From Reclinomonas americana ATCC 50394 (lineage: Eukaryota), in contig PS015134.1 in the NCBI GenBank assembly GCA_048213135.1, positions 62,001 to 126,000 on the forward strand: 64,000 nt of DNA, given 5' to 3'. Positions 51,907-63,128 of the stretch are shown piece by piece. A model generated the notes under the pieces. The model was not told the DNA's origin, made no database searches, and saw only the letters and a list, made by a program, of their open reading frames with translations. The position numbers were made by a program, and so were the translations under genes. Position 1 is the stretch's first letter; each line of letters starts with the position of its first letter.

Positions 51907-54900
51907 TCACTGCGCAGCAGCAGCAGCAGTTGCTGGAGGTGGTGCTTGAGGTGTTGCCGTTTTCGCCGCCTGTCCGCCAGCAGGTGAGGCGGTGGCCGGT
52001 CTCCTGCCGGCTGCAGAGGGCGGCGGACTGCGTTGGCGTGTCGGCGAGGCGGCGGAGCGTGGCGGTGACTTGTTCTTGGCCGCGTAGTCGCGGTAGTACT
52101 GCTGCAGCGAGTCGGACGACTCGTCGGCTGTCTCGTCGCCCTCCTTTTGTGCACATATCGAGTCAGGGACATGCATGCATGAAGACGTACAGGGGACGGA
52201 AGCGCAACTTTGTGCAGCCGCGGTCGAAAATCGAGCTTTGGTTGCCACTTTTCGCGCATCTTCTCCAACTCGGCTTGCCGCTTGGTCAGATCGGCGGCGG
52301 CTAGTCGCTCAAAAACGCCGCTGGCGGGTTCTGGGGAGCGGGGGAAGGAAGGGTGAGGGAAAGGGGGTGAACGGGAAAGGGTGAACGGGAAAGGGGGAAA
52401 GGGGAAGGGGAGTAAGGGAGTTGTGCACTCTTTTCTGCGTGTCTCTCTCTCTTCTTCTCGTTAATCCCACAAGATCGATTGCGGCAGTATCACCATGTGA
52501 GAGTGAAGTGGCGCTCATCTTATCTCTCTATCTCAAGGTGACTTCTTCCTGCTCTTCTCGTCTCGCTCACTCAATCTCTCTTGCCATAGTGTCAAGATGC
52601 AGACGCACAAATGTGAGAGTAAGAAGGAGCTCGCTCCAGTCCACAATCAACAAATCTTTCTTCGCTGACTAACGCACTCAGTCGCGTGCTCCCAAAGCCT
52701 CTCTCTCTCTCTGTATGTCTCTCACGCACTCTCCAGTCCACAATCAACAAATCTCTCTTCGCTCGTCACTGATTAACGCACTCAGTCGCGTGCTCTCAGT
52801 CTCTCTCTCTCTGTATGTCTCTCACGTACTCTTTCTCTACTTTTGTGCCAACCTCCCGCCAATAGCACAGGGACCAGCAAAATACTCTTCTCCTTCTCAC
52901 ATGTTATTTCTCCTGTCGAATCTGTGCGTCTTGCCACTCAGCCACATGCACAGCAGAACGAGGTTAAAGCAACACATCTCGCGCGCCCGTGACTCGCTCT
53001 CTCTCTCTCTCTCTCTCTCTTTTCCTTTTTACACTCTCTTCCCGCCAGACTGACGGTAAGGTAAGAGTGCAGAAACTGATCTCTCTTCGACCGTCACTCA
53101 CGCGCGCTCTCTCTCTTTCCTGTTTTCGCGGATGCACGATACAACGAGAACGCAACAAAAGCTCTCACTTCTCACGCTCTCTCTGTCTCTCTTTCCCTTA
53201 AATGCTTCTTTCCACCCCGCCAGAGGTACGGAAACATGTGGATACTCTGTCTCTCTCTCTCGCATNNNNNNNNNNNNNNNNNNNNNNNNNNNNNNNNNNN
53301 NNNNNNNNNNNNNNNNNNNNNNNNNNNNNNNNNNNNNNNNNNNNNNNNNNNNNNNNNNNNNNNNNNNNNNNNNNNNNNNNNNNNNNNNNNNNNNNNNNNN
53401 NNNNNNNNNNNNNNNNNNNNNNNNNNNNNNNNNNNNNNNNNNNNNNNNNNNNNNNNNNNNNNNNNNNNNNNNNNNNNNNNNNNNNNNNNNNNNNNNNNNN
53501 NNNNNNNNNNNNNNNNNNNNNNNNNNNNNNNNNNNNNNNNNNNNNNNNNNNNNNNNNNNNNNNNNNNNNNNNNNNNNNNNNNNNNNNCCCGCGTCGCGCA
53601 GGCGCATCGGCATTCGACCATCGTCGCACTCGGGTCACCGCATGCGCGGTCCGGCGGCCGCCGGCAAGCACGACGCATGGGGTCGCCTGCACGAGAGCCT
53701 GACGGAGAACTCCAAGAACCGCTCGAGGCAGAGTGCGGAGATTCGGCGTGCGTCGTCGCCGGTGCCCATGGCGTCGCTGGATGTCACCACACCGGACAGC
53801 AAGAAGGGGAAGCGAGCGCAGTCGGCGTCGGCTACCAAGAGGAAGGCGCATGGTGAGAAAGAGAGGAGAAGGGGGATTAAAGGGGAAGGGGGAGAAGGGG
53901 GGGAGACAGGGAAGGGAGAGGGGGGAAGGGGGGAGGGGGAAGGGAGAAGAAACGAGAGGGGACGAAGAGAGAGATTTTCTGCTGCTTTATCTCCGTGCTT
54001 CTGGCAGGGAGGACGGGGCAGGAAGGGGAGAGAAAAGGAGTGTNNNNNNNNNNNNNNNNNNNNNNNNNNNNNNNNNNNNNNNNNNNNNNNNNNNNNNNNN
54101 NNNNNNNNNNNNNNNNNNNNNNNNNNNNNNNNNNNNNNNNNNNNNNNNNNNNNNNNNNNNNNNNNNNNNNNNNNNNNNNNNNNNNNNNNNNNNNNNNNNN
54201 NNNNNNNNNNNNNNCGTGAGATATCAAAAAAAGGGCGTGCGACATGCGGTGGACGACGCAACTGATCGTACTCGCGCCGCAGCTTGGCCTCCTTGACGCG
54301 ATCAATCGCCTCGCTCATGCACTCCAACTTGTGCAACGCATCCTCCCACTTGTTCGTCGGCGTCACCACCACACCGCGCACATTAATCTGACTCGCCGAC
54401 ACATTAAAGGGAAAGTACAGCGGAGTGTCGGGGTTCAGTCGCGCCAATCGCTTCTGCTTCTTCTTGACCGAGGCCGGCGGCTGCACGGGGTCCGAGTCGA
54501 GAACTTCTTGCACGAGGCTCGGTCCGCGGCGGGTGGTGCCGGAGGAGGAGGCCTTTTTCTGTGGCAGGGAAAGGGGGAAGAAAGAGAGAAGGGGTGGTGA
54601 GCGAGGGCGAAAGAGAATGAGGAGGGAGGAAGCAAAAGAGATGAAGAGTGGGTGTTGAATAGCCAGCGAGTGATGGAGAAAGAACAAATGAACGCAGTAT
54701 CGAGAACAGACGGCCAGGTAGAGTGAAAGATAAGAGGACACGGTGAGTAGCCAGGAAGCTGAGGCAGCAAAGGAGGACAGCAAACGAAGCAGAAACTGAA
54801 GCGAAAAAGGCAGCATGGAGCAGCGGGCACAAGCAACTGGAGAAGAACAACGAGAGGGACGGAAACCCCACAGCGCTCGGCGAGCAGCAAAGATCGAATG

Positions 54901-56070
54901 CCACTCAAGCAGGAGCGAGTGCCCAGTGAAACGGAACAGAGTACACAAGCTGCTGGAGAAGAACAGAAAGAGAGTTATGCGCATGGAGGTGAATGGGAAA
55001 CGGAACAGAGTGCACAAGCTGCTAGAGAGGAACAGCAAGAGAGTTATGCGCATGGAGGAGCGTGGGAAACGGAATAGAGTGCACACGCTGCTGGAGAAGA
55101 ACAGTTATGCGCATGGAGGTGAGTGGGAAACGGAACACAGAGTGCACAAGCTGCTAGAGAGGAACAGCAAGAGAGTTATGCGCATGGAGGAGCGTGGGAA
55201 ACGGAACAGAGTGCACAAACTGCTGGAGAAGAACAGCAATAAAGTTATGCGCACGGAGGTGAGTGAGAAACGGAACAGAGTGCACAAGCGACAGAGACGA
55301 ACAACAAGAGAGTTATGCGCGTGGGAGATGGAATAGAGTGCACAAGCTGCTGGAGAAAAACAAGAGAGTTATGCGCATGGAGGTGACTGGGAAACGGAAC
55401 ACAGAGCGCACAAGCCACTGGAGAAGAACAGCAAGAGAGTTATGCGCATGGTGGTAAGTGGGAAACGAAACAGAGTGCACAGACTGCTGGAGAAGAACAG
55501 CAAGAGAGTTATGCGCATGGAGGTGAGTGGAAAACGGAACAGAGGACACAAGCAACAGACAGAGGGCAGTGAGTGGAGAAGACAGAGGAGAATGCAGAGG
55601 GGGACGACTGTAAAGAGAAGAAACGAGAGTGGAGAAGCAAAACGCACTGATGGTGACGCGCTCCCGTTTCCTGCCTGTACATGAGGAGGCGACGAGTCCT
55701 CACTGGGCGCAGACGCAGGAGCAGCAGCTGATGTCTTGTGCTGCTGCTGTTGTTGTTGAGGAGACATAAAGGCAGAGGGAGCTTGTGAGGGCGGCGACCA
55801 CATCAGTGAGTCGGTGTCAGTGGGTGCGTCGGCACCACCCTGTAATGAGAGAGAGAGAGAGAGAGAAGAGGGGGAGTGAGTGAGTGAGTGAGTGAGTGAG
55901 TNNNNNNNNNNNNNNNNNNNNATCATCATGCAGCTGTGGATTAGTAAAGTTGTTGTTGTTGTTGTTGTTGTTGGAGAGAGCTTGCAATTGTGAAGCACTT
56001 GCAATCGCCAGTTGTCGAATTCGTCGGAATCTCTCTTGTGCAACGACTCCCCCCGCTTTGCGTGTTTCAC
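51907..56070 (-). CDS. Uncharacterised low-complexity, basic multi-exon protein (fragmented by gaps)
   Basis: Exons PTDTDSLMWSPPSQ.., KKASSSG..KWEDALHKLECMSEAIDRVKEAKLRREYDQ, GVFERLAAADLTKRQAELEKMREKWQPKLDFRPRLHK and terminal KEGDET..AAAAAQ*, with plausible splice sites. Confidence 0.55.
54930..55550. repeat. Intronic minisatellite, unit about 59-60 bp, about 10 copies
   Basis: gaaacggaacagagtgcacaagctgctggagaagaacagcaagagagttatgcgcatggagg repeated head to tail. Confidence 0.9.
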
Positions 56071-56337
56071 GGATCTGAACCCAACGTTGCATCATGCTTG
56101 CCTGGCTTTGGTCTTCAGCCAGCGCAGCACGCGTCTGCTTGTTCGAAGTTGACGTCGCAAAACGCTCCCGAACGCATCCAGGCTGCCATGCTTTGCGAGT
56201 GAGTCCTTCAGCTGCTTATTCCTGTTACCCCACCCTGCACACATTGGACCCGCATGCACATCGAGACTTCCTTCGACGTGCATGCATTGCATATGTCCCG
56301 TCTAGTATCAATCACTCGTCGAGCTCGATCGCAGCGC

Positions 56338-57686
56338 ATGAGTGCCGGCTGTGGCGCCTTCTGCCGGCGCAACTGTCAGAAGAAAGACCTCCTCCTCTTG
56401 TTTCGTGATCCCTCACGGATCTACCTCTCTCCCCCTCGCACTCTCACTCTCTCCTCTCAATCAGTTGGCTTCCACTATTCGTCGCACTGGCCATCTTCAT
56501 CGGCTTTGCCGCCTACTACACAACGTTACGTGCATCGCCTCTCTAACGCAGATAGACATGCACAATGCACTCATTGCATCATCAATCGTCATTCATCAGT
56601 CGCCTCGTTGAATCGCATCGCAATCCGACGTGGACCGTCACGCCCGACTATCTCGGCTCCAGTTCCCGTTCTCTCTCTCTCGCCCCTCCCCTCTCCCTCT
56701 CCCCCTCCTCTCACTCGCAGCAACACAGATGTCAACTTCCCGGGCATGGCAGCCTGCGTGTACGCCCCACTGTCCGTGGTCGATGCATCGCAGTTGCCGG
56801 CCCTGCAGTGCGTTCTGACACTGGAGAACGATCTGGGAGCGCAGTGCCCGCCCAACTTTGTGTTGCGTTGTCCACGATCCTGTCCGTTTCGTTGCTGCCC
56901 GTGGGCTGAGCGAGAGAGAGAGAGCACGCAGCTGGCCAAGTCAGAGCACCGCGGTGTATGTGGCGACCGTGTCGTACACGCCGGACTCTGGCGCCAACAT
57001 CTACTGCTGGATGCTGAACATGTTCTCGCCGCTCATCACGTTTGGCTTTGTCGGCCAATCGTCGCGATCGATTGTGCTCGGCTGGCTGCAGGATCCTTTG
57101 GTGAGGATCGATGTGTGATCGCATCTCTTTCCCCTCCCCTCTCACTCCTTTGACTCACAGCACATTATGGAAACCAGCCCACTGCTCATCTTCATGTTCA
57201 CACCGCGCGCCGGTCTCGATCCTGCAACAATGACGATTCCATTCACGCCAGTTGCGCTCTCCCACCCTTCTCTCTCTCTCTCNNNNNNNNNNNNNNNNNN
57301 NNNNNNNNNNNNNNNNNNNNNNNNNNNNNNNNNNNNNNNNNNNNNNNNNNNNNNNNNNNNNNNNNNNNNNNNNNNNNNNNNNNNNNNNNNNNNNNNNNNN
57401 NNNNNNNNNNNNNNNNNNNNNNNNNNNNNNNNNNNNNNNNNNNNNNNNNNNNNNNNNNNNNNNNNNNNNNNNNNNNNNNNNNNNNNNNNNNNNNNNNNNN
57501 NNNNNNNNNNNNNNNNNNNNNNNNNNNNNNNNNNNNNNNNNNNNNNNNNNNNNNNNNNNNNNNNNNNNNNNNNNNNNNNNNNNNNNNNNNNNNNNNNNNN
57601 NNNNNNNNNNNNNNNNNNNNNNNNNNNNNNNNNNNNNNNNNNNNNNNNNNNNNNNTACCGTACCGTACCGTCCGTCCGTCCTCCTC

Positions 57687-57746
<60 letters not shown>

Positions 57747-59924
57747 TCTTTGTTTCTCTCTCACACATTTCTCTCACACGTTCGTCTGTAGAACGCCTCC
57801 ACCATCCCCTTCTACGACTGGGGCTGGAAGACCCTCTTCCAGAACCCGCAGAGCCTCAATGTCGTCACCATCACCAACGGCGCCGACAGTCTGCTCAACA
57901 TTCGGCCAGAGCAGTACAACTTTGTGGACACTTCGCAGTCGTTCACTGGCTACCAGTTGCGCATTCGCTGCTCTCAGTCGTGCATCAAGAGCTTCGCAGT
58001 TCACCACCATTTCGTCGCAGGTGTCAAGTCAGCCAAGGGTTGCTCGGCGGTGCATTCGGTGAGAATGTTGCGGCGACCTTCCTTGTCGGCTCCAGCAGTC
58101 CAACGTACAACAAGTTGCGTGTGCGATTGCTGCGTAGTCATGTTGGTGTGCTGTTTTGTTCACGACGCGTGTGCATGTGCAGGTTTTCAGAGGCGTGTTT
58201 GGTGCTGCGTTCTCTCGTCGATGACTACTCGTGTGCTCACACTCTTCATTGCGCAGACGCCGATTACCGTCAGCGATTACTTTGGCTTCCTGGTTGGCAT
58301 TGCTGGTGGTGAGTCCCTGCACGGCGCATGCACTCTGAGAGGTGTCTGCTCTCCAGAGCTTGCTTCGCTGCTGTCAGTTCACTGCCGCGTTTGCTCCTCC
58401 TGATGTGTCGCTCTCTCACTCGTTCTTTCATTTTCTGTTTGTCTTCGCGAAATAGTGTTTCACTCTCGTGTAGTTGTGTCTCACGATGCCCTGCCGTAGT
58501 CATCTCACTCTGCTTCTCTCTCTCCTCTTCTGTCTGATTCATCGTGTCGGAATGTCTCTCAGTTGCTCGACTTCTGTCTCTCAGACTCGGGCGCTCTCTG
58601 TTCACTTTCTGTCGTCCTTCCATCTCCTCTCTTNNNNNNNNNNNNNNNNNNNNNNNNNNNNNNNNNNNNNNNNNNNNNNNNNNNNNNNNNNNNNNNNNNN
58701 NNNNNNNNNNNNNNNNNNNNNNNNNNNNNNNNNNNNNNNNNNNNNNNNNNNNNNNNNNNNNNNNNNNNNNNNNNNNNNNNNNNNNNNNNNNNNNNNNNNN
58801 NNNNNNNNNNNNNNNNNNNNNNNNNNNNNNNNNNNNNNNNNNNNNNNNNNNNNNNNNNNNNNNNNNNNNNNNNNNNNNNNNNNNNNNNNNNNNNNNNNNN
58901 NNNNNNNNNNNNNNNNNNNNNNNNNNNNNNNNNNNNNNNNNNNNNNNNNNNNNNNNNNNNNNNNNNNNNNNNNNNNNNNNNNNNNNNNNNNNNNNNNNNN
59001 NNNNNNNNNNNNNNNNNNNNNNNNNNNNNNNNNNNNNNNNNNNNNNNNNNNNNNNNNNNNNNNNNNNNNNNNNNNNNNNNNNNNNNNNNNNNNNNNNNNN
59101 NNNNNNNNNNNNNNNNNNNNNNNNNNNNNNNNNNNNNNNNNNNNNNNNNNNNNNNNNNNNNNNNNNNNNNNNNNNNNNNNNNNNNNNNNNNNNNNNNNNN
59201 NNNNNNNNNNNNNNNNNNNNNNNNTCTCTCTCTCCTCTTCTCGTCTCGTAGTTCTACTCGTCGTCGGTAGTAGTCTCTCACGTTGTCTCGTACTCTCGTC
59301 TCTCTAGACTCGGCGGCTCTCTGTTCTACTTTCTTCGTCGTCCTTCCTACTCTCCTCTCTCTCTCTCTCTCTCTCCACTGCAGCCCAATTGTTCTTACTC
59401 TTCTCCCTTGAACTCCCACGCTTCCCGTTTCGTATCCTCTCTTCTGTGTTCCATTCACTTGCTCATCCTCCTTTCCCCTAGTTTCTCTCTTAACCTGCGT
59501 CTGTTCGCTTTCGAACATCTCACGATTGTTTGCCCTGCTGTATCCGTCTCTCTATCTGCTTCTCTTCCTCCATCGTGTCGGAATATGTCGCTGCTGCTCG
59601 ACTTCTGTCTTTTCTTTGTGTCTCTGACTCGGTCGCTCTCTGTCTGCCTCTCTCTTCTTCGTGTTTTGTTCTTCGCTTTGTCCGTGTTTTCTTGCGCCTC
59701 AGCGCTCCCCGCCCTTCCCCTTATCAGGCTGCGGCTTCGCCTACCGCATGATGTACGTGTTCGGCAGCTGGCTCCTGCGCTCGAGCCGCCAGCACAAGAA
59801 GACCGACAACTCCTCCAGCGACACTCCGCAGACCGCCATCGAGCTGCGCGAACCGCTGATGGTGGACTCTGCGCGAAGATTACGAGGCGGCGAGACCGAT
59901 CAGCGATTCGTGGACGCCACATAG
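56338..59924 (+). CDS. Two-TM membrane protein with a large beta-rich ectodomain; DEG/ENaC- or PAC(TMEM206)-like channel candidate
   Basis: MSAGCGAFCRRNCQKKDLLLF|WLPLFVALAIFIGFAAYYT (TM1), then RLVESHRNPTWTVT..VNFPGMAAC, about 220 aa of ectodomain, TPITVSDYFGFLVGIAGG|CGFAYRMMYVFGSWLL (TM2) and a cytosolic tail ending FVDAT*. Confidence 0.7.
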
Positions 59925-60102: not shown

Positions 60103-60163
60103 ATCTGAGACACACCCAAGACAGGAGCGAGTAATCTCCATCTTTGACGGGCGTGCTCGTCAC
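60103..60163 (-). promoter_or_regulatory. SECIS element (type II, GUGA core variant) in the 3' UTR of the selenoprotein gene
   Basis: Minus-strand sequence GTGAC gagcacgccc gtc AAA gatggag attactcg ctcctgtc tt gggtgtgtctc AGAT. It has a UGAC/AGAU quartet, a 10-bp helix II with one bulge, apical AAA and a mini-stem. Confidence 0.85.
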
Positions 60164-60257
60164 ACGATGAGCAGGTTGGCGCGCTCGCGAAACCGCGGCG
60201 CTGCAGGAAAAACAAGGAAAGATACAGCCCTCCGCGACGCGGAGACGCCGAGGCAAA

Positions 60258-61011
60258 TCACTTCATGCCCTCCGTCGTCGTGCCAGCCACTTGCTTGCGA
60301 GCCAGCATGACCACCTAGCACACACACAATCAGAGACTGACAAGGGAAAAGATAAATGGATAAGAGACGCAACTTCACCAGGCCGCGGCCACCGCCGCTG
60401 CTTCAGCTTGGAAAACAGCAGTGTGCCCGTGTCCACTCGACCCAAATACACCTCCAATGCACCCGACGGCGGGGACTCTGGGTTGCCTGTGCACGAGAAG
60501 AGGTAAGAATTACAGGGAGGGGCGATGTTGACTTTCTCTTTGAGGGCACGTCGCTCGCTCTGGTCTCACTGTGTCGCTCGCGGTATCGCTCGCTGTGCTC
60601 TCTCTCTCTGTGTGTCGTTCGCTGTGCTCTCGCTGTGTCGCTCTGCTCTCTCTCACTTTGTGTCTNNNNNNNNNNNNNNNNNNNNTCGCTCTGCTCTCTC
60701 TCGCTCTGCTCTCTCTCTCGCTCTGCTCTCTCGCTGTGTCGCTCGCTGTGCTCTGCTCTCTCTCTCTCTCTCTCGCTATACCTCTGTGTGTGTGTCGCTC
60801 GCTGTGCTCTCGCTGTGTCGCTCTGCTCTCTCTCTCTCTCGCGCTCTGCTCTCTCTCTCTCTCGCGCGCTCTGCTCTCTCTCGCGCTCTGCTCTCTCTCG
60901 CGCTCTGCTCTCTCGCGCTCTGCTCTCTCGCGCTCTGCTCTCTCGCGCACTGCACTCTCGCGCTCTGCTCTCTCGCGCTCTGCTCTCTCGCGCTCTGCTC
61001 TCTCACGCTCT

Positions 61012-61044
<33 letters not shown>

Positions 61045-61439
61045 TCTCTCTCTCCCTCCCCCCTCTCTCACTCCCTCCCTCTCCACCCTCCCTTCTCCCT
61101 TCCTCCCCTCCACCACACACACTCACCCACAACCACAGATCCCGGAAGCGCTTCCTTGAGCTCCTCAGCGAGCTCCTGGAAAGCGCCATAGTAACCTCAG
61201 GAAGCTATATCAAAACACACCAAATAATCAATCAATCAATCAATCTCTCCCCTCACTGTCACACAACAATAAACGCAACTACAGAAGAGAATGCTAAAGT
61301 ACTGTCCATTGCCTTGCGGCTGTTTACACAATCACACAGAGAGCAAGTGAGACAGACAAAAACGCGCGCGAATCTTCTTCTCTCACAGACACTCACTCAC
61401 CACAGAGTCGATCGCGTCACCCGATTGCCCGCTTCCCAT
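60258..61439 (-). CDS. Rdx-family (SelW/SelT/MIEN1-like) selenoprotein with CxxU motif
   Basis: Five exons give MGSGQSGDAIDSV|PQGNGQYFSILFCT|SUGYYGAFQELAEELKEALPGSVVVG|NPESPPSGALEVYLGRVDTGTLLFSKLKQRRWPRPGE|VVMLARKQVAGTTTEGMK*. In-frame TGA at 61197-61199, Rdx motifs GxxEV and FSK, and a SECIS about 95 nt after the stop. Confidence 0.9.
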
Positions 61440-61541: not shown

Positions 61542-63128
61542 TCAACTCCACCAAAAGGACACTGAAAAGCTCACTTGCAGCGAGCGTACATAGTGCCAAT
61601 AGTGCGGCGGCATGTAGAGCATATCCCCACGCTCCAGCGTGCACTCCCAGAACGGCACGCCGGCAAAGAGGGGGAAGGCGACGTCGACGTCGGGGTTCGC
61701 GACGTCGATCAGGCTGGTGTTGTGCAGCATGCTGTCGGGGCGCGGGTACAGGCGCGTGGAATGTGCGGGTGAGTAGATGCGGATGAGCTTGCTGCCGACG
61801 GTTTGGCAGAGGAGGTTGTGGTGCGGGTCGTGGTGGAGGGGGGAGATGGTGCCGCGCGGTCCGAACCAGGCGTTGCGGGTGAAGACGGCACCGGTGCCGA
61901 GGGCGCGGCAGTAGGGCGGAGTGACGATGTCGTGCTGTAGTCGGGGGATCTGGTCGAAGAGCGTGTGCTGCGCGAGGTAGCCGCGTTCCTCGTTCGGGTG
62001 CAGCACGAAGCGATCGACAAAGTCGAGCAGCGGCATTAGTCGCTGCGACCAGCCCTCGGCGACGTAGTGTTGGCCGACCTCTGCGCAAAAAGGCGACAGT
62101 GGGCAAAGTGAATAGAAGGGCGGAGCGGCGGCTGCGAACAGACCAACGGGGACGGTGCGATGGCCGGCCACTCGTTTCAAGTACGCCATGTTGGCCCAGC
62201 TGTGGTCCGCCGACATGCACGGCCACTCCTGCAACGCTCGTGCACTATAAGCCATGATGCGCAGTGGGTGCCGGTGATGAGGCACGCCTCACCTGCATGC
62301 ATCCACGCAACAGCGCCGGTCGCATCGGTGTGAAACACTCCCTCTCAAACTCCTCCACCGACGGGCACTCCAACACCAGCAACTCCAATCGCTCCGATCC
62401 AGGCGGCACTGAGAGCTCCACCTCTTCGTCCATCACGAACGAGTGAGCATCCAGGCGCAGCGCAGAAGACGAGACAACTGCACACCATCGCGCTCCAGAC
62501 TGGCAATCTCTATATTGTCTTCTTCTCCCCCTTGCGCATCGTCCTCGCGATTCGTATCGCGCAGCTCCTCCACCAGCTCCAACAGCTCAAAGGCCTCCTC
62601 GCGAAACATATTCGCGCCCATGATCAGCGCCATGTCAATCGTCCGCGAGACCTCACACAATCGATGCGAGTTAAAGCGATGCAATCGACCTGTGCGCCAC
62701 GTGCTAAGAGACAGACTCGGAAAGATGAGAGGAGGAGATGTGAGGGAGAGAGAGAGACCTTGCTCCTCATCCATCAACAGCTCGATCTTGGCCAGTGCCA
62801 GCGAGGCTGCAGCATAGGCATCTCGCCAGGCGACATTGACACGATGCCACACTCCCACATGCAGCTGCTCCCAGGCAAGGATCTGTGCCTCCACTGCACA
62901 CTTGCGTGCTTCCCTCGATTGGCCACGACGGTCAGCGAGCAAAGAGTGCACGCGTTGCAGGAGTGACACGACGAGTGTGCCGTATGATTCCGGTGGTTGC
63001 AGTTGCGCGAGGAGTGTGTCCCATTGGTGCTGCAGCTCGTCAGAGACTGTGTCGGTGGTGGTGTGGTGTGGACGGTGGCCGGCTGGATGCAGCGTGAGGG
63101 TGCCGTGTGGGGTGTACTCCAGGTGCAT
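61542..63128 (-). CDS. KDM8: JmjC-domain hydroxylase JMJD5/KDM8
   Basis: AWEQLHVGVWHRVNVAWRDAY, IDMALIMG, GYLAQHTLFDQIPRL, NAWFGPRGTISPLHHDP (HxD) and GDMLYMPPHYWHYVRSL..SVSFWWS*. Confidence 0.92.

What the first reader, a model, noticed from the sequence alone, without database searches (positions are those of the whole stretch)
60103..61439. Hidden selenoprotein with an intron-split CxxU motif and an N-myristoylation signal
Seen: TGT A|gttgcg...ag|CT TCC TGA GGT TAC yields C-T-S-U-G-Y in an Rdx-type sequence, and a well-formed SECIS lies downstream. The N-terminus MGSGQS fits the MGxxxS myristoylation consensus. ORF finders miss the gene because of the UGA and tiny exons. Established: SelW/SelT/SelH use CxxU. 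Inference: a membrane-tethered Rdx selenoprotein, and evidence that this organism has Sec machinery.
Basis: partly seen in the sequence, partly recalled or inferred. Interest (0 to 1): 0.8.

Follow-up and report, generated by a model that had tools for sequence, protein, structure and literature searches.

The report
SelW-like selenoprotein with predicted lipid anchor
A small five-exon gene of an unidentified single-celled eukaryote very likely reads an internal UGA "stop" as selenocysteine to make a SelW-type redox protein, an ordinary kind of gene, whose one unusual trait is an N-terminal sequence that may attach a fatty acid and hold it near membranes.

Summary
On the minus strand, five exons (61439-60258) give a 108-residue protein with C-T-S-U-G-Y; an intron falls inside the Thr codon and the TGA is at 61199-61197. 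Exons 3 and 4 each match only the Rdx/SelWTH profile, in order. A GUGA-core type II SECIS starts 94 nt after the stop. A second copy on contig C245 keeps the coding sequence (2 of 327 bases differ), the TGA and the SECIS, while introns 2-4 diverge. The host encodes tRNA-Sec, SecS, SPS, eEFSec, SBP2 and N-myristoyltransferase, plus TGA-containing GPx and thioredoxin reductase genes with their own SECIS elements. Selenoprotein status is about 93% likely; no RNA run was listed. Myristoylation rests on the MGSGQS motif alone: no relatives were found to test conservation and there is no nearby second anchor, so 'membrane-tethered' is about even odds. I found no myristoylated Rdx protein in print, but lipid-anchored MIEN1, plant Trx h2 and GPX4/5 are precedents. 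Earlier scan notes report other selenoproteins in this genome and Rdx selenoproteins elsewhere; none shown to me had this N-terminus.

The parts
61401..61439 (-). Exon 1 coding part (13 codons): start ATG and the MGSGQS N-myristoylation motif
   Evidence: Only in-frame ATG between the upstream gene's stop (61542) and the TGA; identical in C245; GTGAGT donor follows
61320..61400 (-). Intron 1, 81 nt, GTGAGT...CAG; holds two in-frame TGA codons
   Evidence: Only 1 substitution against C245, so divergence gives it little support
61280..61319 (-). Exon 2: end of the linker, predicted first beta-strand, Cys26 and the first base of the Thr27 codon
   Evidence: identical in C245
61205..61279 (-). Intron 2, 75 nt, GTTGCG...TAG, phase 1, splitting the CxxU motif
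   Evidence: 22 substitutions and 8 gap columns against C245, where it is 67 nt and would shift the frame if retained; GTTGCG donors in 2 of 19 control introns
61127..61204 (-). Exon 3: T-S-U-G-Y and the first helix of the Rdx fold
   Evidence: PF10262 positions 9-31, 13.8 bits; TIGR02174 positions 8-30, 16.5 bits
61197..61199 (-). In-frame TGA, codon 29, predicted selenocysteine
   Evidence: kept in C245; the exon read from the rival acceptor without S-U-G gives no profile match
60487..61126 (-). Intron 3, 640 nt, GTGAGT...CAG, mostly simple repeats with a short N gap
   Evidence: 804 nt in C245
60374..60486 (-). Exon 4: beta-hairpin half of the Rdx fold (SGALEV; LFSKL...WP), with a basic patch at residues 79-87
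   Evidence: PF10262 positions 40-65, 15.3 bits; TIGR02174 positions 38-65, 18.3 bits; charges
60315..60373 (-). Intron 4, 59 nt, GTTGCG...TAG (CAG in C245)
   Evidence: 5 substitutions and a 1-nt insertion against C245. Not confirmed by homology: the retained form also matches the profile
60258..60314 (-). Exon 5 coding part: last helix, tail and TGA stop (60260-60258)
   Evidence: identical in C245
60089..60174 (-). Type II SECIS: 5-bp helix I, GUGAC/AGAU core (60163-60159 and 60106-60103), 11-bp helix II with one bulge, unpaired AAA after 13 nt, 7-bp apical mini-stem with an 8-nt loop
   Evidence: the single C245 difference turns a G-U pair of helix I into A-U

Best explanation
A SelW/SelW2-like Rdx-family selenoprotein gene of a Sec-using protist. 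Shown from sequence: the exons, the TGA at the second position of the profile's CxxC/U motif, a 3' SECIS, and the host's decoding genes. Inferred from established eukaryotic Sec biology: after splicing, SBP2 binds the SECIS kink-turn, eEFSec delivers Sec-tRNA, UGA29 is read as Sec, and the product is an 11.5-kDa thioredoxin-like oxidoreductase. It would cycle between a Cys26-Sec29 selenenylsulfide and the reduced form, acting on protein thiols and being re-reduced by glutathione or thioredoxin. When selenium is short, termination at UGA29 would give a 28-residue peptide. Inferred with less certainty (about 0.6): Met1 is removed and Gly2 is myristoylated. A roughly 20-residue acidic, probably flexible linker then holds the redox domain loosely and reversibly on the cytosolic face of membranes, as described for plant Trx h2; the basic patch at residues 79-87 is a possible second contact. 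The confidence below is for the selenoprotein part.
For: Open 108-codon chain with GT-AG introns. Exons 3 and 4 each hit only PF10262 and TIGR02174, in order; dropping S-U-G loses the hit. C245 copy: 2 of 327 coding bases differ, no indels; intron 2 has 22 substitutions and a length not divisible by three. SECIS stable, rare in host DNA and conserved. Host tRNA-Sec, SecS (19, 102), SPS (20, 75), eEFSec (21, 99), SBP2 (86: E 1.1e-14 to 7zjw_B). Two other host genes with TGA at the catalytic site and a SECIS behind. N-terminus fits MGxxxS, found at 9 of 5,679 open ATGs in host DNA; N-myristoyltransferase present.
Against: Each exon alone is weak (E 0.002-0.07) and below the curated cut-offs; the joined protein could not be scanned. 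No Rfam SECIS match and the SECISearch Default pattern fails. The two copies are so close that conservation of the TGA and SECIS is weak evidence of selection. No relative from another organism was found. Exon 1 has no homology support, and an out-of-frame ATG lies 13-17 nt upstream in both copies. No Cys or basic cluster lies near the N-terminus. PSTK was not searched.
Confidence: 0.93

Rival explanations
1. A real Rdx selenoprotein that is soluble: MGSGQS is either not acylated, or it is acylated but the single myristate does not keep the protein on membranes. This differs from the best explanation only in localisation.
For: No Cys for palmitoylation and no Lys/Arg before residue 43; Asp at 8 and 11. 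That one myristate binds membranes only weakly is recalled knowledge. Conservation could not be tested. The looser PROSITE-type motif occurs at 44 of 5,679 open ATGs.
Against: The strict motif with Ser6 is rare by chance (9 of 5,679) and sits on an extension of about 20 residues before the domain. Myristoylation was reported to be responsible for ER/Golgi localisation of Trx h2 (PMC8147087, passages). The host's Sec-GPx also starts with an acylation motif.
Confidence: 0.45
2. Intron 2 is spliced to the in-frame GAG acceptor at 61195, removing T-S-U-G. The product reads C-S-Y-Y, has no Sec, and the hairpin is incidental or a relic.
For: The alternative acceptor exists, is in frame and is present in both copies. 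It could also be used as a minor isoform.
Against: It is not the first AG after the branch-like TTGAT motifs 24-36 nt upstream of the TAG. 0 of 19 hand-picked control acceptors are GAG, all 19 are CAG, and TAG interchanges with CAG at intron 4 between the copies. The product loses the profile match. A conserved SECIS would be unexplained.
Confidence: 0.04
3. The TGA is a true stop: a pseudogene or a 28-residue peptide, with a chance hairpin downstream.
For: Weak single-exon E-values; no Rfam match; no relatives found.
Against: Both copies keep the frame through three more exons. The TGA sits where the family has Cys or Sec. SECIS-like hits outside TGA genes were 3 in 641,836 bases. The decoding machinery and two other TGA-plus-SECIS genes are present.
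Confidence: 0.03

Closest known systems
SELENOW / SELENOW2 (Rdx family; PF10262, TIGR02174)
   Same: Compact Rdx domain with CxxU-G-Y near the N-terminus, UGA plus 3' SECIS. SelW is reported in most selenoprotein-containing eukaryotes (PMC2375036, passages) and is widespread in algae (PMC7539508, passages).
   Different: About 20 extra N-terminal residues beginning with an MGxxxS motif; C-T-S-U rather than the C-G-A-U of mammalian SelW (recalled). Orthology to W1 or W2 was not tested.
MIEN1 / Rdx12 (C17orf37)
   Same: Rdx fold behind a flexible N-terminal stretch of about 20 residues (PMC3527542, passages); lipid-anchored (PMC6738349, passages); sister group of SELENOW2 with Sec forms in fishes (PMC13134290, passages).
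   Different: MIEN1 is geranylgeranylated at a C-terminal CAAX box and is confined to jawed vertebrates. This protein has no CAAX (its only Cys is 26) and the predicted lipid is at the other end.
N-myristoylated thioredoxin-fold enzymes: Arabidopsis Trx h2, GPX4/GPX5; human TXNRD1_v3
   Same: A redox enzyme placed on membranes by an N-terminal acylation motif (PMC8147087; PMC12315940; for TXNRD1_v3 I saw only the title in a reference list).
   Different: Different families. The plant proteins use Cys. None is an Rdx protein.
Ostreococcus-type SECIS
   Same: G before the core and a long apical mini-stem, described for almost all O. tauri elements (PMC2375036, passages).
   Different: Nothing essential; this shows the SECIS form is known. 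It does not place the organism.
SELENOT and SELENOH
   Same: Rdx family, CxxU; SelT has x-S-U-G-Y (recalled).
   Different: No signal peptide or hydrophobic insert (highest 19-residue hydropathy 0.86), and no basic N-terminal nuclear signal.

Membership tests
Eukaryotic selenoprotein gene | In-frame UGA at a position where relatives have Cys or Sec | tested here: met
   Exon 3 aligns from S28-U29 to TIGR02174 positions 8-9 and PF10262 positions 9-10; the hit is lost without S-U-G
Eukaryotic selenoprotein gene | SECIS in the 3' UTR: UGAN/KGAW core, unpaired adenines, two helices | tested here: met
   UGAC/AGAU core with GA/GA quartet, AAA, passes Loose+ but not Default; 334 nt from the UGA in the spliced model; the 3' core reads AGAU rather than KGAW; no Rfam match
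Eukaryotic selenoprotein gene | Host has tRNA-Sec, SecS, SPS, eEFSec, SBP2 | tested here: met
   Each in two host copies
Eukaryotic selenoprotein gene | Host has PSTK | not tested
Eukaryotic selenoprotein gene | Spliced mRNA keeps the UGA and Sec is incorporated | not testable with these tools
   Needs RNA reads and 75Se labelling or mass spectrometry
Rdx (SelW/SelT/SelH/Rdx12) | CxxC/U motif after the first strand, with collinear match to the family profile | tested here: met
   Two exons, one family each, positions 8-30 and 38-65 (38-72 with the following residues) of 74
Rdx (SelW/SelT/SelH/Rdx12) | Whole-protein score above the curated cut-off | not testable with these tools
   The spliced product could not be scanned. 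Exon scores add to 34.8 bits against 34.2 (TIGR02174) and 29.1 against 22.6 (PF10262), without exon 2; a rough sum only
Rdx (SelW/SelT/SelH/Rdx12) | tGxFEI/V stretch in the C-terminal half (motif recalled from Dikiy et al. 2007, not read) | tested here: met
   Present in variant form, S-G-A-L-E-V, inside the profile-matched part of exon 4
Rdx (SelW/SelT/SelH/Rdx12) | Thioredoxin-like fold | not tested
   No model was made; PDB sequence searches with exon pieces found nothing
MIEN1/Rdx12 | C-terminal CAAX prenylation box | tested here: not met
   Cys only at 26; the modelled C-terminus has no Cys
SELENOT | Signal peptide and hydrophobic insert between the two halves of the fold (recalled) | tested here: not met
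   Highest 19-residue hydropathy 0.86; the profile halves are adjacent
SELENOH | Basic N-terminal nuclear signal (recalled) | tested here: not met
   First Lys/Arg at residue 43
SELENOW/SELENOW2 | Groups with W1 or W2 in a tree | not testable with these tools
   No eukaryotic Rdx sequences were retrieved
N-myristoylated protein | Gly2 with a permitted residue 3 and Ser6 | tested here: met
   Matches the PROSITE-type pattern as I recall it; both copies
N-myristoylated protein | Host N-myristoyltransferase | tested here: met
   PF01233 at E 1.5e-26 on C89
Stably membrane-anchored myristoylated protein | Second signal near the N-terminus (palmitoylable Cys or polybasic run) | tested here: not met
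   None before residue 26; acidic residues at 8 and 11
N-myristoylated protein | Motif conserved in relatives | tested here: inconclusive
   Identical in the C245 copy, which is 99% identical overall; no other relative found

The most novel reading that the evidence does not exclude
The Rdx family acquired a lipid anchor twice at opposite ends: C-terminal prenylation in vertebrate MIEN1 and N-terminal myristoylation here. This protist then keeps a membrane-bound selenium redox set, with this myristoylated CxxU protein and the Sec-GPx that starts M-G-C-G-S-S working on the same membranes, the Rdx protein possibly serving as the local reductant or thiol regulator in lipid-peroxide defence.
Probability: 0.25. 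Interest if true: 0.62.

Novelty: new variant of a known kind. Interest (0 to 1): 0.4.

Why it matters
As a selenoprotein it is ordinary: SelW-type genes are widespread in Sec-using eukaryotes and are routinely missed by annotation, and Sec use in this genome is also shown by other genes. The point of interest is the N-terminal acylation motif. Substrates of Rdx proteins are poorly known, and a naturally membrane-targeted, Sec-containing member would parallel prenylated MIEN1 and give a simple test (G2A, U29C, U29S) of whether Rdx chemistry acts at membranes. The long-apex SECIS elements here and in the GPx gene also show why default SECIS searches undercount protist selenoproteomes.

Tried and rejected
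RNA evidence: no RNA holder listed, so no reads were laid; this is no evidence either way. Relatives: none in the word-indexed protein search with exon 4 or with the exon 3 region; the exhaustive search with exon 4 returned 1 protein, an FG-GAP repeat protein judged a chance match; ESM Atlas no usable hit; PDB none; plasmids 2 chance matches at E 2-4; metagenome contigs 1 locus of 496 candidates, a chance match in bacterial DNA without an Rdx gene. All these queries were short exon pieces, so they do not show that relatives are absent. Own-genome search with PF10262 gave 2 weak matches that are not Rdx genes and missed this gene itself, so paralogues with small exons cannot be excluded. Rfam SECIS_1 found nothing in the genome and PF08806 nothing; both searches are insensitive here. 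A covariance model from the two copies found nothing significant in 8 loci (best E 0.35) and did not recover the GPx SECIS properly (E 9.7). A SECIS-like hit 6 kb beyond the window lies inside what reads as a ubiquitin-protease gene (recalled motifs) and was counted as a false positive. Retention of intron 2 was rejected because it is 67 nt in C245. Fusion with the upstream JmjC gene was rejected because that gene ends in its own stop at 61542. Literature: 'selenoprotein + myristoylation + Rdx' 1 paper, 'selenoprotein + myristoylat + selenocysteine + SECIS' 8, 'selenoprotein W + myristoyl' 15; by listing, and by passages for PMC7539508, none describes a myristoylated Rdx protein. The library lacks most subscription papers, including Dikiy et al. 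2007, and supplements of algal selenoproteome papers were not read. No structure or complex was predicted. The organism was not identified.

Full report
Observation. The finding lies on the minus strand of a compact, intron-rich eukaryotic region, between a JmjC/KDM8-like gene on the same strand (Cupin_8 E 3e-34 and ARM_KDM8_N E 3e-12; stop at 61544-61542) and a convergent gene whose last frame ends near 59924. Five exons, 61439-61401, 61319-61280, 61204-61127, 60486-60374 and 60314-60258, join to 327 nt and 108 residues with one internal TGA at codon 29 (61199-61197) and a terminal TGA. The introns are 81, 75, 640 and 59 nt, all GT-AG.

Is the gene model right? The donors of introns 2 and 4 are both GTTGCG, which looks odd but occurs in 2 of 19 introns that I placed by hand in the host's SecS, SPS and GPx genes and checked by open frame (picked by eye, so not an unbiased sample). 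A DNA search of the own genome found a second copy on contig C245, probably the other haplotype, since the machinery genes also come in pairs. The copy has the same 327-nt coding length with 2 differences (one silent, one Leu to Met) and no indels. Intron 2 has 22 substitutions and is 67 nt, intron 4 has 5 substitutions and a 1-nt insertion, and intron 3 is 804 nt. That pattern marks introns 2-4 as non-coding. Intron 1 differs at only 1 of 81 bases, so it rests on other grounds: a GTGAGT donor, two in-frame TGAs inside it, and 61439 being the only in-frame ATG between the upstream stop and the Sec codon. An out-of-frame ATG lies 13 nt (window) or 17 nt (C245) upstream; whether it is transcribed is unknown. 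No RNA run could be laid on the region.

Family. Exon 3 read with TGA=U and exon 4 each match one family only: Pfam Rdx positions 9-31 (13.8 bits) and 40-65 (15.3 bits), and TIGR02174 CXXU_selWTH positions 8-30 (16.5 bits) and 38-65 (18.3 bits). Each score is weak and below the cut-off; their order and the rough sums (29.1 against 22.6; 34.8 against 34.2) make chance unlikely. The spliced protein itself could not be scanned. It lacks the hydrophobic segments of SelT, the basic N-terminus of SelH and the CAAX box of MIEN1 (the SelT and SelH criteria are recalled), so it is best called SelW/SelW2-like, without a tested orthology.

The rival acceptor. An in-frame AG 9 nt downstream (GAG, 61195) would delete T-S-U-G. 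It is not the first AG after the branch-like motifs; all 19 control acceptors are CAG and none GAG; TAG is interchangeable with CAG at intron 4 between the copies; and the exon read from this acceptor gives no profile match. I give it about 4% as the main form.

SECIS. Ninety-four nt after the stop begins GUGAC, an 11-bp helix II with one bulge, unpaired AAA after 13 nt, a 7-bp mini-stem with an 8-nt loop, and AGAU, closed by a 5-bp helix I. It folds at -24.5 kcal/mol, z -2.59, with 3 of 200 shuffles as stable. The only C245 difference within it converts a G-U pair to A-U; one such change is weak support. Against it: no Rfam SECIS family matched, and in my re-implementation of the SECISearch patterns printed in the supplement of PMC3753652 (passages) it fails Default and passes Loose+. 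Loose+ gave 321 raw hits in 300,494 host bases, 6 at -20 kcal/mol or better, and this is the only one of the 6 with apical adenines. My own scan found only this element and its copy in 233,768 bases; widened, it gave 7 hits in 641,836 bases (window plus 36 partly overlapping loci): this element twice, the GPx and one thioredoxin reductase element, and 3 not tied to a TGA gene; it missed the second thioredoxin reductase copy. Both scans were tuned after seeing the elements. A G before the core and a long mini-stem are described as typical of Ostreococcus SECIS elements (PMC2375036, passages), so the form is known.

Host machinery. tRNA-Sec with anticodon TCA occurs on C170 and C194 (72.3 bits); the C170 copy lies among intron-bearing genes. 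SecS, an intron-bearing Cys-type SPS, eEFSec and SBP2 (2 of 14 L7Ae matches; E 1.1e-14 to human SBP2, 7zjw_B) each occur twice. The assembly also holds long contigs with intronless selD and GPx genes (C1, C2), which I take to be bacterial and left out. Two further host genes have TGA at the catalytic position and a SECIS behind: a GPx and a large thioredoxin reductase ending C-S-T-U-G. Earlier scan notes list the latter and three more selenoprotein kinds in this genome; I checked only the reductase. PSTK was not searched.

Myristoylation. M-G-S-G-Q-S fits MGxxxS; the strict form occurs at 9 and the looser PROSITE-type form at 44 of 5,679 open ATGs in host DNA (true starts may be richer in MG). 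N-myristoyltransferase is present. There is no Cys or basic run near the N-terminus; residues 8 and 11 are Asp, the protein is slightly acidic (pI 5.4), and the only basic cluster is at 79-87. No relative was found to test conservation, all with short queries. I put acylation at about 0.6 and lasting membrane residence at about even odds. The host's Sec-GPx begins M-G-C-G-S-S in both copies, a motif that would allow both myristate and palmitate.

Mechanism. Shown: anatomy and machinery. Inferred from established Sec biology: SECIS-SBP2-eEFSec decoding of UGA29 yields a thioredoxin-like oxidoreductase with a Cys26/Sec29 centre acting on protein thiols. Inferred, less certain: myristate on Gly2 and a flexible acidic linker present the domain on cytosolic membrane faces, reversibly.

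Comparison and novelty. It works like SELENOW/SELENOW2, which is widespread (PMC2375036; PMC7539508; passages). A lipid-anchored Rdx protein is known: MIEN1 is geranylgeranylated (PMC6738349, passages), has a flexible N-terminal stretch (PMC3527542, passages) and keeps Sec in fishes (PMC13134290, passages). N-myristoylated redox enzymes are known in plants (Trx h2, PMC8147087; GPX4/5, PMC12315940; passages) and, by title only, human TXNRD1_v3. Three full-text searches showed no myristoylated Rdx protein, and 0 earlier scan findings held all of my five search words. The class is therefore a new variant of a known kind, on the strength of a predicted trait; without the acylation it is simply a new member.

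Verdict. Real gene, very probably a selenoprotein (0.93); membrane tethering unproven; interest 0.4.

Noticed in passing
G000:C22 minus strand, about 75100-70580 (L048); second copy G000:C760 plus strand from about 11150 (L049): Glutathione peroxidase with TGA at the catalytic position, beginning M-G-C-G-S-S (myristoyl plus palmitoyl type motif) in both copies. Its SECIS has a GUGAC core, a perfect 13-bp helix II and two apical hairpins, and passes neither published SECISearch pattern in my re-implementation.
   Followed up: partly
G000:C496 about 112800-113600 (L051) and G000:C384 (L052): Large thioredoxin reductase ending C-S-T-U-G with an AUGA-type SECIS that passes the Default pattern in both copies; already noted by earlier scan reports.
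   Followed up: partly
G000:C1079 1-2750 (L026) and G000:C1146: Selenophosphate synthetase in Cys form that appears fused, through an intron, to an upstream NifS-like aminotransferase class V domain. NifS-SPS fusions are reported in Acanthamoeba and Naegleria as horizontal acquisitions (PMC4561486, passages).
   Followed up: partly
window 61542 to about 63140, minus strand: KDM8/JMJD5-like JmjC gene whose stop lies only 102 nt upstream of the selenoprotein ATG, so its 3' end and the selenoprotein's promoter must share or overlap that space.
   Followed up: no
window 61452 (and 17 nt upstream of the start in C245): Out-of-frame ATG just upstream of the start codon in both copies; in the window it would open a short frame overlapping exon 1, a possible translational control if transcribed.
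   Followed up: no
G000:C1, C2: Megabase contigs with intronless selD and GPx genes, apparently co-assembled bacteria; most host genes examined occur twice, suggesting separately assembled haplotypes.
   Followed up: no
window about 56200-59924, plus strand: Convergent multi-exon gene ending about 165 nt beyond the SECIS; the two frames I scanned had no Pfam match.
   Followed up: no
window about 54800-55600: Imperfect repeat array giving recurring 'RNRVHKLLEKN'-like frames on both strands; not examined.
   Followed up: no
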